Positions 20,094 through 28,152 are shown, counted from the stretch's first letter. The stretch is DNA of 33,548 nucleotides from Acidobacteriota bacterium (GCA_031401095.1 JANNRD010000455.1:1-33548), one strand, 5' to 3'. Made by a program: numbers and translations. Notes: generated by a model not told the origin, from the sequence alone.

Positions 20094-20444
20094 CTACATA
20101 GGAATCGGGCAGATGATGTTGACCCATTCGTCGGCTTCGGTCGTTGTCCAAATCAGGACCAACTCCTCGATCGCCGTATCCAGATCGGTCTTCTGAGAAA
20201 GTATCAAGACACCAGGGCTGTTTCGCCTCGTGATGAACTTCGCGAAATGTAGAGGCATCGTCCGCCGATCATGCGTGACGAGGATGCGGTTTTCCTGAGC
20301 TGCCAATTCAAGCACTTCATCATCAGGGAGACCCATGAGGCCGGCCGCATGCCCAGTTTGAAAGTCGATTCGGGGCTCGCGCCGGACGACACCGGCGATG
20401 ATGTCCTGATTGAAATCGTAGTCACCCTGGAAGCGGATTGTCAT
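20094..20444 (-). CDS. DUF5615-family PIN-like putative toxin
   Basis: 116 aa. MTIRF..D.D........V.RREPRIDFQT...AGL.GLPDDEVLELAAQENRILVTHDRRTM..HF is the typical DUF5615 pattern. Abuts the DUF433 gene. Confidence 0.75.
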   Translation of the reverse strand: MTIRFQGDYDFNQDIIAGVVRREPRIDFQTGHAAGLMGLPDDEVLELAAQENRILVTHDRRTMPLHFAKFITRRNSPGVLILSQKTDLDTAIEELVLIWTTTEADEWVNIICPIPM

Positions 20445-20753
20445 TCAGTCGGCCAGCGTTTTGTTCTTCGCCGCTTCGAGCTTACGGTAAAGGAGGGGAT
20501 AGGCCTCGCGAGCCTGCTTCCGCAGTTCCTCAAAGTCAGCCTCACCCTGTGCAAGGTAGGCGTCGACCTCTTCACGGTGCGAAAGGTAAAAGGTGATCGC
20601 GCCGTAAACCTGTTCGAGGTTTAGCAGAGGAAACGATTGGGCGATTGACTCAGGCGAAGCGCCGCGCAGAAAGGCGTAGACGAGGGAATCCAGAGAAATG
20701 CGGGTGCCGGTGATCCAGTACCCACCATCACGCTGTTCGACATACTGGCTCAT
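20445..20753 (-). CDS. DUF433-family putative antitoxin
   Basis: 102 aa. ITGTRISLDSLVYAFLRGASPESIAQSFP.L.LEQVYGAITFYL is the DUF433 core. Confidence 0.8.
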   Translation of the reverse strand: MSQYVEQRDGGYWITGTRISLDSLVYAFLRGASPESIAQSFPLLNLEQVYGAITFYLSHREEVDAYLAQGEADFEELRKQAREAYPLLYRKLEAAKNKTLAD

Positions 20754-20940
20754 TGCTTAGTCTCCTTAGCGACGCCAGTATATCATTCGCTTCTCATTTC
20801 GCTCCACTAGAACACTTTTTCCGGACGCGGTCGCGCAGACGACGTGACTGCGCAAGCTATCTCCCCACCCTATGTCATCTGTCATCGATCCCACCGACAA
20901 CTCCCGAGGCTGGCTTATCACCTCTCGCCCCTTCAGTAGG

Positions 20941-21204
20941 ACACTGAACAATTACTGAACAATTTTGCGCCGAATACCCTGTAAAACCGTGTATCCAACC
21001 CAACCAACAAGCACGTAGAGCCAACAAGATAGCAAACCTGCATTAGTCTGTTAACCGGGGGGTTGTAGGTTCGAGTCCTACCTGAGGAGCCATTCTTTTC
21101 AATGAGTTAGCAAACTCACCTCTCCTCGACTGAACAAATGAGCATCCGGTTAAACAAGACGGATGAGACGAGCACGGCTCAATTGTAGACACCCAATGAT
21201 TGCC
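20941..21204 (+). repeat. attP-like junction unit 1 (L arm, 45-nt tRNA 3' core, R arm)
   Basis: L arm 20941-21047 with tandem ACTGAACAATT x2. Core 21048-21092 (CTGTTAACCGGGGGGTTGTAGGTTCGAGTCCTACCTGAGGAGCCA). R arm 21093-21204. Confidence 0.8.
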
Positions 21205-21359
21205 TTCCGAAAGGGGATGGGTGCTGGGTGGCTCGTGCGAGATCATGAGAGCTACCGCAATTCTTCCCTCGGGACCTCATGATTTAGCCCTCATGATTTA
21301 GGTTGATCCGGCAGGCAAGGAAATGCAGAATGAGAAGAGCAAACTGAAAAAAGGACCTT

Positions 21360-21667
21360 ATGAGCAGTGATTGCGTCCAGCGACAGGGCAACGAATACCG
21401 AGTCACGGGGAGTCGTGTTTCGCTCGATTCAATGTCTACGCCTTCTGGAACGGAGAAAGCGCCGAAACGATCGCACAGTCATTTCCCGTGTTGAGGCTGG
21501 AAGGGTCTACGGACCAATCGCCTTCGATCTCGCCCACAAGGATGAGGAGGATCGCTATCTCGAGCAGCGGCGCACCGATTACGAAGCCAAGCGCCAAGCT
21601 GCCCGCGACGCGGACCCAATGTTCTACCAGAGACTAGCCGAAGCGCGGCGTCAGTCGCTTACCTCCA
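21360..21667 (+). pseudogene. DUF433 antitoxin pseudogene (two frameshifts)
   Basis: Homology to the intact copy is split over three frames: MSSDCVQRQGNEYRVTGSRVSLDS, then VYAFWNGESAETIAQSFPVLRLEG, then VYGPIAFDLAHKDEEDRYLEQRRTDYEAKRQAARDADPMFYQRLAEA. Confidence 0.7.
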
Positions 21668-21982
21668 ATGAGAATTCGCTTTCTCGCTGACGCTGATCTC
21701 CACCAGACGATCGTAACGGCGGCCGTTCGTCGAGGACCGGGTCTTGACTTCATGACTGCGGCTGCCGCCGGGTTGGCGGGCCTGAATGATCTGCAATGCT
21801 CGACCGGGCCGCAGGTGAGGGTCGCGTCCTTGTTTCACACGACCAGGCGACGATGGCGGCACACTTCGCTGAATTCATCCAGCAGCGCGAGAGTCGCCTT
21901 GCAGAGAACGCGCCTGACGGCTCGCGCTGCAGGCGTGCAGACGCATTGCGCGCGGATCGGGTATGATGGGGCGGAGGACTGA
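21668..21982 (+). pseudogene. DUF5615 toxin pseudogene (frameshifted)
   Basis: MRIRFLADADLHQTIVTAAVRRGPGLDFMTAAAAGLAGLND in one frame. The expected continuation (VLDRAAGEGRVLVSHDQATMAAHFAEFIQQRES) is in another frame. Confidence 0.65.
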
Positions 21983-21985
21983 CTA

Positions 21986-22270
21986 ATGACCGCATTCATT
22001 GCTTCCAGGCGCGCGCAGATTCTCGAGCTGGCTCACCGCCACGGTGTGACGCGAGTCCGTGTCTTCGGCTCGATGGCACGGGGCGATGCTGGTCCCAGCA
22101 GTGACGTGGACCTCCTCGTGGACGTGGGGCCAGACCCGTCGCCATGGTTCCCGGGCGGCCTGGTCGCCGACCTCCAAAAGCTCCTCGGCCGCTCCGTACA
22201 GGTCGTGACCGAGCGGGCCCTCGACGATCTCCTGCGCGACCAAGTCCTCAGCGAGGCTGTGCCTCTGTGA
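21986..22270 (+). CDS. Nucleotidyltransferase (MNT/MntA-type) antitoxin
   Basis: 94 aa. RVFGSMARGDAGPSSDVDLLVD is the minimal NTase GS..x..DxD motif. The stop overlaps the GTG start of the HEPN gene (GTGA). Confidence 0.8.
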   Translation: MTAFIASRRAQILELAHRHGVTRVRVFGSMARGDAGPSSDVDLLVDVGPDPSPWFPGGLVADLQKLLGRSVQVVTERALDDLLRDQVLSEAVPL

Positions 22271-26868: not shown

Positions 26869-26905
26869 TTGATCGCCTTTCAACTTGAAGGTAGAATCCA
26901 AGTTG
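26869..26905 (+). promoter_or_regulatory. Candidate hicBA promoter with an operator-like inverted repeat
   Basis: TTGATC (26869-26874), 17-nt spacer, TAGAAT (26892-26897). CAACTTG (26881-26887) and CAAGTTG (26899-26905) bracket the -10. Confidence 0.4.
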
Positions 26906-26996
26906 TCGGTAGTGGATGGGCAGGCGGACTCTGACTTTGGGTGGCGCCTTTTCTTCGGGTATGACTGCACCTGAATAGAAGGGTGAGGTGGATGGT

Positions 26997-27203
26997 ATGA
27001 GTTTCACGATTGAAGTCGAACAAGAAGAGGACGGGCGCTGGTTAGCTGAGGTAATTGATCTCCCCGGGGCCTTGGTTTATGGGCAGACCCGAGATGAAGC
27101 TGTCGCGCGCGTCCAGGCGCTGGCGCTACGCGTTGTCGCGGACCAATTGGAGCACGGGGAAACCGCACCTCAGCAGGTGAGCGTGTCGTTCATCGGGGCA
27201 TGA
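26997..27203 (+). CDS. hicB: HicB-family antitoxin
   Basis: MSFTIEVEQEEDGRWLAEVIDLPGALVYGQTRDEAVARVQALA is the UPF0150/HicB N-domain. ATG at 26997 after GAGGTGG. Confidence 0.8.
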   Translation: MSFTIEVEQEEDGRWLAEVIDLPGALVYGQTRDEAVARVQALALRVVADQLEHGETAPQQVSVSFIGA

Positions 27204-27412
27204 GCCAATGGCCAACCACTAAGGCGAGAAGGGTGCTGGCCGCCCTGTTGCGCATCGGTTGGAGCATCAAGCGCCAGTCTGGATCGCACCGCACTCTCTC
27301 ACGGGCTGGCTGGCCCGATACGGTCTTTGCTTTTCACGATAGTGAAGAAATTGGCCCACGAATGCTGTCTCGCATTTCAAAATCGACTGGCTTGAAACCC
27401 GAAGACATTTAG
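27200..27412 (+). CDS. hicA: HicA-family mRNA interferase toxin
   Basis: 70 aa. ARRVLAALLRIGWSIKRQSGSHRTL.........FHDSEEIGPRMLSRISKSTGL is the HicA dsRBD-like motif. ATGA overlap with hicB. Confidence 0.85.
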   Translation: MSQWPTTKARRVLAALLRIGWSIKRQSGSHRTLSRAGWPDTVFAFHDSEEIGPRMLSRISKSTGLKPEDI

Positions 27413-27486
27413 GACCCGGCGAAGCCCGCCGAAGGCTCGACTGCAATGGAACCGTCGAAGTCACCGCGGATGGCGCTTCTTTCAGA

Positions 27487-27752
27487 CACTGAACAATTAC
27501 TGAACAATTTTGCGCCGAATACCCTGTAAAACGACATATCCAAGCCAACCAAGAAGCACGAAGAGACAACAGGACAGCAAACCTGCATTAGTCTGTTAAC
27601 CGGGGGGATGTAGGTTCGAGTCCTACCTGAGGAGCCATTCTTTTCAATGAGTTAGCAAACTCACCTCTCCTCGACTGAACAAATGAGCATCCGGTTAGAC
27701 AAGACGCCTGAAACGAGAGTGCCGTGTTTGTAGACACCTAATTCCGGTATTC
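27487..27752 (+). repeat. attP-like junction unit 4 (L arm, core, R arm)
   Basis: L arm 27487-27592. Core 27593-27637 with one substitution in the variable loop (GGGGGGATG). R arm 27638-27752. Confidence 0.8.
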
Positions 27753-27866
27753 GCGTCTCGCACGGCCCGAACTGTGCTGCCCAATAGTTCTGTTCACGAG
27801 CCGTCGCCATCTTTCGATATACCGCAGAGACGAACTCACCATAGGATGGGAGTGTAGGGGGCAACC

Positions 27867-28100
27867 ATGGCCGAACTGCAATTGCGAGAAGCAAGAAGGC
27901 AAAAGGGTTGGAATCAGCGGCAGGCGGCTCGACGGCTCGGTGTGTCTCAGGCTTATCTCTCTCTCCTTGAGGCAGGAATACGGCGTGTCCCCGAGAGGCT
28001 TTGCATAACGCAAACGTCGAGGTCCTTTCCATCCTGCCCGACGATTTCTCTCTGGGCTTGGCGCTGTACGAATCGCGCCTCGATAAGGGATACAGCCTAA
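27867..28100 (+). CDS. XRE-family HTH protein, probably a truncated or decayed antitoxin
   Basis: N-terminus LREARRQKGWNQRQAARRLGVSQAYLSLLEAG is a clean HTH_XRE. The remainder has no recognisable pattern. A PIN C-terminal remnant lies in another frame at 28022-28132. Confidence 0.45.
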   Translation: MAELQLREARRQKGWNQRQAARRLGVSQAYLSLLEAGIRRVPERLCITQTSRSFPSCPTISLWAWRCTNRASIRDTA

Positions 28101-28152
28101 CTGACTCTACCGCGATGACACCTGTACTCTGAACCTACTCCGTCGCAAGGTA

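What the first reader, a model, noticed from the sequence alone, without database searches (positions are those of the whole stretch)
20094..28132. Cassette cargo is almost entirely toxin-antitoxin modules of different families, each self-contained
Within about 8 kb the cassettes carry several TA modules. They include DUF433/DUF5615 (intact), a second frameshifted DUF433/DUF5615 pair, MNT/HEPN, and RelE/ParE with an antitoxin. They also include VapBC-like, an orphan DUF2281-like antitoxin, HicBA, and an XRE/PIN remnant. A third, deleted DUF433/DUF5615 copy lies at 30708. Just outside the array are a decayed PIN module and hipBA, and mazEF lies 12 kb upstream. Four of the six segments (three about 0.75-0.9 kb and one about 1.1 kb) hold essentially one TA operon each. 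Orientations are mixed, so expression cannot depend on one external promoter as in integrons. Either the TA modules stabilise otherwise gene-poor cassettes (addiction), or the array is a swappable abortive-infection/defence locus.
Basis: partly seen in the sequence, partly recalled or inferred. Interest (0 to 1): 0.6.

Follow-up and report, generated by a model that had tools for sequence, protein, structure and literature searches.

The report
Toxin-antitoxin cassettes stacked at tRNA-Asn
Behind a tRNA-Asn gene of a soil Acidobacteriota genome sit six small mobile cassettes with no integrase gene, loaded about 80-fold above background with toxin-antitoxin pairs, which probably persist because losing them would kill the cell.

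Summary
The observation largely holds. HMMs confirm five intact toxin-antitoxin (TA) operons: DUF433/DUF5615, MntA/HepT, ParE with a conserved 63-aa antitoxin, PIN with an upstream partner, and HicB/HicA. Three decayed pairs and a weak DUF2281-like orphan are also present. hipBA and mazEF lie outside the array.

"Almost entirely TA" is overstated. Two FG-GAP genes take 36% of cargo bases against 40% for TA. The "decayed PIN module" outside the array is not supported.

The cassette boundaries are attP-like units: a 117-nt arm, the 45-nt tRNA-Asn 3' half, then an arm that is a relic of an integrase gene's last ~14 codons. The layout is B-O-P', P-O-P' repeated, P-O-B'. That makes it a tandem accretion of integrase-less, CIME-like mini-elements.

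No cognate integrase is found in this MAG. A full-length parent type exists in a Blastocatellia MAG.

Shared cassettes are 89.5-94% identical between genera whose chromosomal genes are 65-72% identical, and their order and content differ. Small cassettes in relatives also carry TA pairs.

The best reading is selection by survival. TA operons are compact and probably self-expressed, and they penalise excision or repeat-mediated deletion, as shown for TA cassettes of Vibrio chromosomal integrons. PADLOC gives no support for a defence locus. I class it as a new variant of a known kind.

The parts
19939..20013 (+). tRNA gene heading the array. It has a tRNA-Asn body but reads anticodon GAT and has one anticodon-stem mismatch. 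Its 3' half is the first core copy (attL, B-O-P').
   Evidence: ARAGORN and Rfam. Relatives have tRNA-Asn(GTT) at the syntenic site.
20931..21166 (+). attP-like junction unit R1: P arm 20931-21047 with two ACTGAACAATT motifs, 45-nt tRNA 3'-half core 21048-21092, then P' arm. Equivalent units lie at 25120-25355, 26148-26383 and 27476-27711. A partial core is at 24241-24271. The terminal P-O-B' copy is at 30983-31144.
   Evidence: Repeat families D2, D4, D5 and D6 and alignment A1. The P' arm read in reverse (...CSFVQSRRGEFAN) matches the integrase C-terminus (...LFSIVQSGEKEVA) of L082.
20094..20753 (-). Segment 1: intact DUF433 antitoxin (20445-20753) and DUF5615 Mut7-C/PIN-like toxin (20094-20444). 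The stop and start codons abut.
   Evidence: Pfam. The family pairing is described in PMC2701414 and PMC5499597.
21360..21894 (+). Segment 2: decayed DUF433/DUF5615 pair, with frameshifts in both genes and a truncated toxin.
   Evidence: tblastn hits in three and two frames.
21986..22599 (+). Segment 2: MntA nucleotidyltransferase antitoxin (21986-22270) and HepT HEPN RNase toxin (22267-22599). This is a type VII TA pair. The RX4HXY motif (RKVLVHDY) and the GS...DVD motif are present.
   Evidence: Pfam, NCBIfam, PADLOC PDC-S09.
22572..23933 (+). Segment 2: non-TA cargo, an FG-GAP/VCBS beta-propeller protein with a signal peptide. The probable start is near 22740.
   Evidence: Pfam FG-GAP_3, FG-GAP and AUDH_beta_propeller.
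24381..24825 (-). Segment 3: a 63-aa antitoxin of no named family (24634-24825) and ParE/RelE-fold toxin (24381-24641), overlapping by 8 nt.
   Evidence: Pfam ParE_toxin, 56 bits. The pair is conserved in 10 of 10 related loci across two phyla.
25393..26102 (-). Segment 4: PIN toxin (25393-25845) and an upstream 86-aa putative antitoxin (25842-26102), overlapping by 4 nt.
   Evidence: Pfam PIN, 27.5 bits. The partner is conserved in L085 and L086.
26562..26717 (+). Segment 5: orphan DUF2281-like small ORF. The call is weak.
   Evidence: Pfam 21 bits, below the cut-off. It resembles 31422-31742. The segment is absent from G001's HicBA cassette.
26988..27412 (+). Segment 5: short HicB (26988-27203) and HicA toxin (27200-27412), overlapping by 4 nt. 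A sigma-70-like site lies at 26869-26897.
   Evidence: Pfam, promoter scan. The cassette is 89.5-91.6% identical in G001 and G007.
27867..28132 (+). Segment 6: remnant in which an XRE HTH N-terminal part is fused, at about 28000, to the C-terminal part of a PIN-like ORF.
   Evidence: HTH_3. The G007 homologue is 90% identical, with PIN E=0.17. The same breakpoint has a different left partner in G007.
28276..30447 (-). Segment 6: non-TA cargo, a 723-aa secreted FG-GAP_2 repeat protein.
   Evidence: Pfam, 325 bits. It is 93% identical in G001.
30702..30823 (-). Segment 6: remnant of a DUF5615 5' end and a DUF433 3' end, about 92% identical to segment 1.
   Evidence: Repeat families D8 and D9, tblastn.
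31934..33413 (-). hipBA, outside the array: HipA 31934-33163 and HipB 33135-33413.
   Evidence: Pfam.
7908..8488 (+). mazEF, 12 kb upstream of the array: MazE 7908-8150 and MazF 8144-8488.
   Evidence: Pfam PemK_toxin, 101 bits. AbrB-type motif QKWGNSLALRIP.

Best explanation
The locus is a tandem accretion array of six non-autonomous integrative mini-elements (CIME-like, with no integrase) at the 3' half of the chromosomal tRNA-Asn gene.

Structure of each element (shown):
- a right arm (P') that is a relic of the last ~14 codons of a tyrosine integrase gene and carries one ACTGAACAA arm-type motif;
- the cargo;
- a 117-nt left arm (P) with two such motifs;
- a 45-nt copy of the tRNA 3' half joining neighbouring elements.

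Movement (inferred):
- The elements are moved in trans by a cognate integrase like the 407-aa enzyme found next to tRNA-Asn in a Blastocatellia MAG.
- That enzyme is not detectable in this MAG, so the array is probably frozen here and decaying.

Why the cargo is mostly TA (inferred):
- TA operons are compact, translationally coupled, presumably autoregulated modules that circulate horizontally on their own.
- They suit a cassette that receives no outside promoter.
- An excised circle cannot replicate. Loss of a TA cassette, by integrase excision or by recombination between the ~235-nt direct repeats, would free the stable toxin and kill the cell.
- Cassettes without such a module are lost over time, so TA cassettes accumulate and also protect neighbours such as the two FG-GAP genes.
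- Redundant or silenced pairs then erode.
For: Architecture:
- The B-O-P', P-O-P' (x4 plus one partial), P-O-B' layout.
- The intact tRNA lies at the left end.
- Relatives have tRNA-Asn(GTT) beside the same peroxidase gene.

Parent element:
- The arm motif overlaps the 3' end of tyrosine integrases in L067, L075, L062 and L082.
- The window's P' arm translates to an integrase-tail relic, with a shared junction beyond it in R1, R4, R5, G007 and L068.

No cognate integrase:
- The best hit in the MAG is 28% identical.

Cargo:
- Pfam and NCBIfam calls.
- About 80-fold enrichment over the genome background.

Modules independent of the cassettes:
- ParE and its antitoxin are paired in 10 of 10 loci without att units.

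Mobility and variability:
- Shared cassettes are 89.5-94% identical in G001 and G007.
- The secA-like gene is 72% and 65% identical, and the peroxidase flank 65-71%.
- HicBA has a different neighbour in each of three genomes.

Generality:
- TA genes abut the P arm in G001 (x2), G007 (x2), G017, L073 and L078.

Precedent:
- TA cassettes of sedentary chromosomal integrons kill cells when excised (PMC13108822).
- CIMEs are defined as att-flanked, recombinase-less deletion derivatives (PMC7563491).
Against: - No toxicity, excision or circle formation has been shown.
- With no cognate integrase in the MAG, present-day excision pressure may be nil. Only RecA-type deletion would then select for TA.
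- Three of eight pairs are decayed, so selection on individual modules is not strong.
- Only hicBA has a convincing sigma-70-like promoter.
- In the wider family, cargo next to the P arm is often not TA: sortase, dCTP deaminase, ORF6N, PLD-like and others.
- The left boundaries of shared cassettes are not identical between genomes, so some differences come from deletion rather than clean cassette exchange.
- The MAG is fragmented (762 contigs, 6.4% contamination), and cassette order across ~90% identical repeats could be partly mis-assembled.
Confidence: 0.6

Rival explanations
1. Swappable anti-phage locus. The TA modules are kept because they act as abortive-infection systems, and the array is a defence island whose content is exchanged among strains.
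For: - HEPN/MNT, PIN, HicA and ParE-type modules have been linked to phage defence in other organisms (general knowledge).
- MntA matches the PADLOC candidate system PDC-S09, E=1e-32.
- Chromosomal integron cassettes are reported as reservoirs of defence systems (10.1101/2024.07.02.601686, listed).
- Cassettes are exchanged between genera.
Against: - PADLOC found no validated system in any of 20 proteins tested. The hits were the PDC-S09 candidate, a weak PDC-M03A hit to HipA (18 bits) and generic PLD-motif similarity to DrmC in a G007 cargo protein.
- No restriction-modification, CRISPR, CBASS or other defence genes lie in or beside the array.
- Three pairs are decayed.
- No viral contig carries the att motif.
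Confidence: 0.17
2. Independent wreckage. Each segment is the separately decayed remnant of a full-size integrase-bearing island, and TA pairs are simply the last genes left. The mini-cassettes never moved as such.
For: - Classical 8-57-kb islands with integrases occupy tRNA-Asn in relatives.
- Decay is visible in the window: frameshifts, a partial core at 24241 and fused fragments.
- The most distal segments are the ones shared with the same-genus MAG.
Against: - All units share the same discrete arm ends and the same junction beyond the integrase relic, within the window and in G007 and L068. This argues for one founder deletion derivative rather than six separate decays.
- Cassettes are 89.5-94% identical across genera whose chromosomal genes are 65-72% identical.
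- HicBA has different neighbours in three genomes.
Confidence: 0.15
3. Assembly artefact. The array, or its order, is a chimera produced by collapsing or joining repeats from several strains in a metagenome.
For: - The MAG has 762 contigs and 6.4% contamination.
- The units are ~235 nt long and about 90% identical.
Against: - A comparable array lies inside a 364-kb contig of G007, with the same unit types.
- Units in the window differ at many positions (60-96% identity over repeat families), which lets assemblers resolve them.
- The attL and attR ends have the expected asymmetric structure.
Confidence: 0.05

Closest known systems
Cis-mobilizable elements (CIMEs) and site-specific accretion at ICE/IME att sites in streptococci (PMC7563491; review PMC5704250)
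   Same: - Elements are att-flanked and lack all recombination genes.
- They derive from integrase-bearing elements by deletion.
- They are stacked in tandem at the 3' end of a target gene (including tRNA-Lys in S. agalactiae), with the most decayed copies farthest from the target.
   Different: - Here six elements form the whole array, with no resident ICE or IME and no conjugation genes in the parent seen so far.
- Cargo is dominated by TA operons rather than metabolic or metal-resistance genes.
- The host phylum is Acidobacteriota.
- The arms are long (117 nt plus about 75-125 nt), and the arm-type sites are embedded in the integrase gene's own 3' end.
Toxin-antitoxin cassettes of sedentary chromosomal integrons, for example the Vibrio cholerae superintegron (PMC13108822; PMC11023631)
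   Same: - Arrays of roughly 1-kb cassettes, each with one recombination site.
- The arrays are enriched in TA operons that carry their own promoters, in either orientation.
- TA cassettes penalise cassette loss and so stabilise the array.
   Different: - There are no attC hairpin sites, no IntI integrase, no attI and no Pc promoter.
- Recombination sites are double-stranded attP-like units that mimic a tRNA 3' half.
- The anchor is a tRNA gene.
- The recombinase is a classical arm-binding tyrosine integrase encoded elsewhere.
Tycheposon arrays in Prochlorococcus genomic islands (10.1101/2020.12.28.424599)
   Same: - Tyrosine-recombinase elements integrate at tRNA genes.
- Newcomers push older ones inward.
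- Islands are littered with partial tRNAs and degenerate remnants.
   Different: - Tycheposons are defined by their own integrase together with replication modules, and they carry nutrient-acquisition or PICI-like cargo.
- The text search of that preprint found no mention of toxins.
- Here the elements are about 1 kb, lack an integrase and carry TA.
TA-stabilised genomic islands and ICEs, for example MosAT of SXT (PMC2654960)
   Same: A TA module encoded on an integrative element prevents loss of the excised element.
   Different: There it is one TA pair on a ~100-kb self-transmissible element. Here the TA pair is essentially the whole element.

Membership tests
CIME (cis-mobilizable element) | Flanked by att sites of an integrative element family | tested here: met
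   P-O-P' units lie on both sides of segments 1, 4, 5 and 6, with a partial core between segments 2 and 3.
CIME (cis-mobilizable element) | No integrase, excisionase, relaxase or other signature genes | tested here: met
   Pfam scans of the ORFs tested across 19.9-31.2 kb found no PF00589 domain or mobilisation domain.
CIME (cis-mobilizable element) | Derived from an ICE or IME by deletion | tested here: inconclusive
   Derivation from an integrase-bearing element is shown by the integrase 3' relic in the P' arm. Whether the parent is conjugative or mobilisable is unknown: L082 shows an integrase followed by histidine kinases, and the contig ends before the other att site.
CIME (cis-mobilizable element) | Mobilised in cis after accretion with a functional element | not testable with these tools
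   This needs excision and transfer assays.
Integron cassette array | attC sites (imperfect palindromes recombined as folded single strands) | tested here: not met
   The repeats are direct copies of a tRNA 3' half with asymmetric arms. No attC family is among the Rfam matches over the gathering threshold.
Integron cassette array | IntI integrase with adjacent attI and Pc promoter | tested here: not met
   No integrase is on the contig. The five PF00589 hits in the MAG lie on other contigs.
Type II/VII toxin-antitoxin modules | Adjacent small toxin and antitoxin genes of recognised families, translationally coupled | tested here: met
   Five pairs have abutting stop and start codons or 4-8-nt overlaps. 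DUF5615, HepT, ParE, PIN and HicA score above the Pfam cut-offs. Two antitoxins have no named family but are conserved partners.
Type II/VII toxin-antitoxin modules | Toxin arrests growth and the antitoxin neutralises it | not testable with these tools
   This needs expression assays in a laboratory host.
Tycheposon | Element-encoded tyrosine recombinase of the tycheposon clade plus a replication module | tested here: not met
   The cassettes carry no integrase or replication genes. The relationship of the L082 integrase to the tycheposon clade was not tested.
Anti-phage defence island | Presence of recognised defence systems | tested here: not met
   PADLOC matched only MntA to candidate PDC-S09, gave a weak PDC-M03A hit to HipA (18 bits), and showed generic PLD similarity in G007 cargo.

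The most novel reading that the evidence does not exclude
These arrays are a tRNA-anchored gene-cassette platform that converges on integrons.
- Non-autonomous cassettes of about 1 kb each carry a portable ~235-bp attP-like module. The conserved left-arm scaffold can be combined with different tRNA cores: Asn, Pro, Arg and Lys were seen here.
- A classical arm-binding tyrosine integrase captures and shuffles them in trans. Its arm sites lie inside its own gene's 3' end.
- TA cassettes act as anti-excision locks.
- Unchecked notes from this scan report similar integrase-less TA stacks at other tRNAs in several archaeal and bacterial phyla. If so, this would be a widespread and so far unnamed way in which TA operons spread.
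Probability: 0.3. Interest if true: 0.75.

Novelty: new variant of a known kind. Interest (0 to 1): 0.5.

Why it matters
How TA operons move between genomes is a long-standing question, because they carry no mobility genes of their own. Here single TA operons sit between complete, portable att sites. They have crossed genus boundaries recently (90-94% identity against 65-72% for chromosomal genes), and a candidate trans-acting integrase type is identified. That makes the vehicle directly testable.

The locus is also a second, mechanistically unrelated case of the association between cassette arrays and TA modules known from chromosomal integrons. It therefore supports the general idea that repeat-bounded cassette stores fill up with addiction modules. 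For genome annotation, such arrays would be missed by integron finders and by island finders that need an integrase.

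Tried and rejected
- **Codon-usage gene caller** trained on the MAG. It missed the Pfam-confirmed ParE, HicA and HepT genes, so I used all-ORF Pfam scans instead.
- **Base composition as a sign of foreign origin.** The array is 56.7% GC against 57.8 +/- 2.1% for the genome, which is not informative.
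- **Integrase search.** None is on the contig. The five PF00589 hits in the MAG are at most 28% identical to the cognate type. G007 has only two hits, of Xer-like length.
- **Empty-site search.** No relative shows tRNA-Asn followed directly by the window's distal flank.
- **Viral contigs.** No match to the arm motif.
- **'Decayed PIN module' at 31742-32024.** No HMM or BLAST support.
- **Outward promoter in the unit.** A site (TTAACA-17-TATCTT) appears only in R1 and R6, so I rejected it as a general feature.
- **PADLOC on 20 proteins.** No validated system.

Full report
**What is there**

The window is one whole contig (C455) of a 4.89-Mb Acidobacteriota MAG with 762 contigs.

A repeat search found a family of about 235-267-nt direct repeats at 20931, 25120, 26148, 27476 and 30983. 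There is a shorter copy at 19969 and a fragment at 24241. ARAGORN and Rfam place an intact tRNA at 19939-20013.

Each repeat contains the 45-nt 3' half of that tRNA, running from the anticodon loop to CCA. Alignment A1 shows three kinds of junction:
- The left end has the tRNA 5' half, the core and a right arm (B-O-P').
- Internal junctions have a 117-nt left arm, the core and the right arm (P-O-P').
- The last junction has the left arm, the core and a unique flank with a terminator-like hairpin (P-O-B').

This is the signature of repeated site-specific integration into one tRNA gene. It divides 20.0-31.1 kb into six segments, with cargo of 843, 3075, 845, 793, 1093 and 3272 nt.

**The cargo calls**

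Five operons are intact:

| Segment | Antitoxin | Toxin | Junction |
|---|---|---|---|
| 1 | DUF433 | DUF5615 | stop and start abut |
| 2 | MntA | HepT (true start GTG 22267) | 4-nt overlap |
| 3 | 63-aa ORF, no named family | ParE | 8-nt overlap |
| 4 | 86-aa ORF | PIN | 4-nt overlap |
| 5 | short HicB | HicA | 4-nt overlap |

The DUF433 plus Mut7-C-like PIN pairing is an established predicted TA family, with M. tuberculosis VapBC45 as an example (PMC2701414 and PMC5499597).

The two unnamed antitoxins are real partners. The 63-aa ORF accompanies ParE in 10 of 10 related loci from Acidobacteriota and Verrucomicrobiota. The PIN partner is recognisable in 2 of 3 relatives.

Three pairs are decayed:
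- a frameshifted DUF433/DUF5615 pair of a different lineage (43-50% identity to segment 1);
- an XRE fragment fused to a PIN-like fragment;
- a deleted copy of the segment-1 pair at 30702-30823.

The DUF2281-like ORF and HicB score below the Pfam cut-offs.

Outside the array, hipBA and mazEF are confirmed. The reported "decayed PIN module" at 31742-32024 is not.

Two points need correcting:
- The stated range contains a 453-aa FG-GAP gene, and the last segment holds a 723-aa FG-GAP gene.
- By bases, TA sequence is about 40% of the cargo and these two genes about 36%.

**Is it more than chance?**

The MAG has 11 PIN, 3 ParE, 3 HicA and 4 DUF5615 toxins. That is 21 in 4.89 Mb, so 0.048 would be expected in the 11.2-kb array. 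Four are observed, before counting HepT. The excess is about 80-fold, with Poisson P about 2e-7.

**What the cassettes are**

The left arm opens with two tandem ACTGAACAATT motifs, and the right arm carries a third. Exact-pattern scans found the double motif in 7 stretches from six reference MAGs, five of them other genomes (labelled Blastocatellia, Solibacteraceae and unclassified Acidobacteriota) and one apparently the window's own assembly, and in 21 metagenome contigs.

In L067, L075, L062 and L082 the motif sits about 65 nt downstream of an intact tRNA (Pro, Val or Asn) and overlaps the last codons of a tyrosine integrase on the opposite strand. The L082 enzyme is 407 aa and has the Phage_integrase, Phage_int_M and SAM-like domains.

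The window's right arm, read in reverse, encodes ...CSFVQSRRGEFAN. The integrase tail reads ...LFSIVQSGEKEVA. The sequence beyond this relic is shared by R1, R4, R5, G007 and L068.

The cassettes therefore descend from one founder that lost its integrase gene but kept both arms. This matches the definition of a CIME (PMC7563491).

The MAG has no cognate integrase. The best hit is 28% identical.

The same left-arm scaffold (about 75-85% identical) is joined to Pro(TGG), Arg(ACG) and reversed Lys tRNA cores in other loci. The att site is therefore modular.

**Variability and mobility**

- G001 (same genus) shares segment 6 at 93% identity and the HicBA cassette at 89.5%. It lacks the DUF2281-like stretch. 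It places a third-lineage DUF433/DUF5615 cassette where the window has the PIN cassette. Its tRNA-proximal DNA is unrelated.
- G007 (another genus) has an array at the same tRNA. It carries HicA with a truncated hicB at the end of a 5.3-kb cassette that also encodes a PLD-like protein. Its second cassette fuses the segment-4 PIN to the PIN-like fragment of segment 6, at the same breakpoint as in the window.
- Chromosomal genes are far more diverged. The secA-like gene is 72% identical in G001 and 65% in G007, and the peroxidase flank is 65-71% in four relatives (G001's value also).

Cassettes at 89.5-94% identity must therefore have been exchanged after these lineages split.

**Is TA cargo a general property?**

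I ran Pfam over 194 ORFs from 28.8 kb on the cargo side of 21 non-redundant units. The hits were:
- TA-type: DUF433 x3, DUF5615 x2, PIN x2, HicA and HicB.
- Other: dCTP deaminase, sortase, ORF6N, Replic_Relax, TPR/YfiO, PD40, MacB_PCD, PEP-CTERM and DUF7133.

TA genes abut the left arm in G001 (twice), G007 (twice), G017, L073 and the Pro-type L078. TA pairs thus dominate the small cassettes, while larger elements carry other genes.

**Mechanism**

Shown:
- the architecture;
- the integrase relic;
- the enrichment;
- the conservation of the two-gene modules;
- the recent exchange between genera.

Inferred: the reason for the TA bias. An excised cassette circle cannot replicate, and the ~235-nt direct repeats invite deletion. 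A cassette whose loss releases a stable toxin is therefore retained, while others are lost. TA operons are also small and probably self-expressed, which suits cassettes of mixed orientation with no shared promoter.

The same logic has been demonstrated for TA cassettes in Vibrio chromosomal integrons (PMC13108822).

Erosion of three pairs fits redundancy. The segment-6 remnant is a copy of the segment-1 pair, so its antitoxin can be supplied in trans. It also fits the lack of a resident integrase.

**Rivals**

- **Defence-island reading.** It gets no support from PADLOC on 20 proteins. The only hits were a candidate system for MntA, a weak PDC-M03A hit to HipA and generic PLD similarity.
- **Independent decay of six full islands.** This is contradicted by the shared junction beyond the integrase relic and by the cross-genus identity.
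- **Mis-assembly.** It cannot be excluded for cassette order. It is unlikely for the phenomenon itself, because G007's array lies inside a 364-kb contig.

**Limits**

- Only hicBA has a good sigma-70-like promoter.
- Base composition is uninformative.
- No empty site was found.

**Novelty**

Each ingredient is known: accretion at tRNA genes, CIMEs, TA cassettes in integrons, and TA-stabilised islands. I found no description of arrays made solely of ~1-kb, integrase-less, att-bounded elements that each carry one TA operon, in Acidobacteriota or elsewhere, in the literature searches.

Unchecked notes from this scan report similar stacks at other tRNAs in several phyla. I treat these as leads, not support. 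I class the finding as a new variant of a known kind.

Noticed in passing
window 19939-20013: The only full-length copy of the tRNA reads anticodon GAT with a mismatched anticodon stem, whereas all complete displaced core copies and all relatives read GTT (Asn). ARAGORN found no other tRNA-Asn in the MAG.
   Followed up: partly
window 31276-31450: Rfam group-II-D1D4-3 match (69.6 bits) just beyond the last att unit. It is an isolated group II intron fragment with no intron-encoded protein nearby.
   Followed up: no
L018-L044 (about 65 nt downstream of tRNA-Asn in relatives): Other relatives carry different double direct-repeat motifs at the same position after tRNA-Asn, for example ACTTCCACAnTTACTTCCACA, GTCCCACAnnnnGTCCCACA and GTGGACACAnnnGTGGACACA. 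This suggests a superfamily of tRNA-Asn-targeting elements with lineage-specific arm sites.
   Followed up: no
L054, L058, L061, L066, L070, L072, L076, L078-L080: A recognisably related ~117-nt left arm (about 75-85% identical) is joined to 3' halves of tRNA-Pro(TGG) and tRNA-Arg(ACG), and to a reversed 5' half of tRNA-Lys. The arm and core of the att site are therefore exchangeable modules.
   Followed up: partly
G000 contig C460:574-752 and 6061-6381: A solo, degenerate P-O-P' unit lies away from any tRNA, next to a small ribbon-helix-helix-like ORF. Further along the same contig is a broken homologue (55-70% identity) of the L073 PIN toxin.
   Followed up: partly
window 28000 / L044 13734: The same breakpoint at the start of the PIN-like fragment is joined to an XRE fragment in the window and to the truncated segment-4 PIN gene in G007. 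It is either a recombination hot spot or an old junction reused.
   Followed up: no
window 26988-27412: HicB is only 71 aa, covering the N-terminal half of the HicB_lk profile with no DNA-binding domain. It precedes hicA, the reverse of the usual hicA-hicB order.
   Followed up: no
window 15943-16090 and 15167-15258: Two long, near-perfect inverted repeats lie in intergenic DNA upstream of the secA-like gene: 56-nt arms at 96% complementarity and 37-nt arms at 89%.
   Followed up: no
window 21054-21026 and 31106-31078 (minus strand): A sigma-70-like site (TTAACA-17-TATCTT, with a TG extension) is formed by the anticodon-loop part of the core and the left arm. It points into the cassette to the left. 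It is present only in units R1 and R6.
   Followed up: partly
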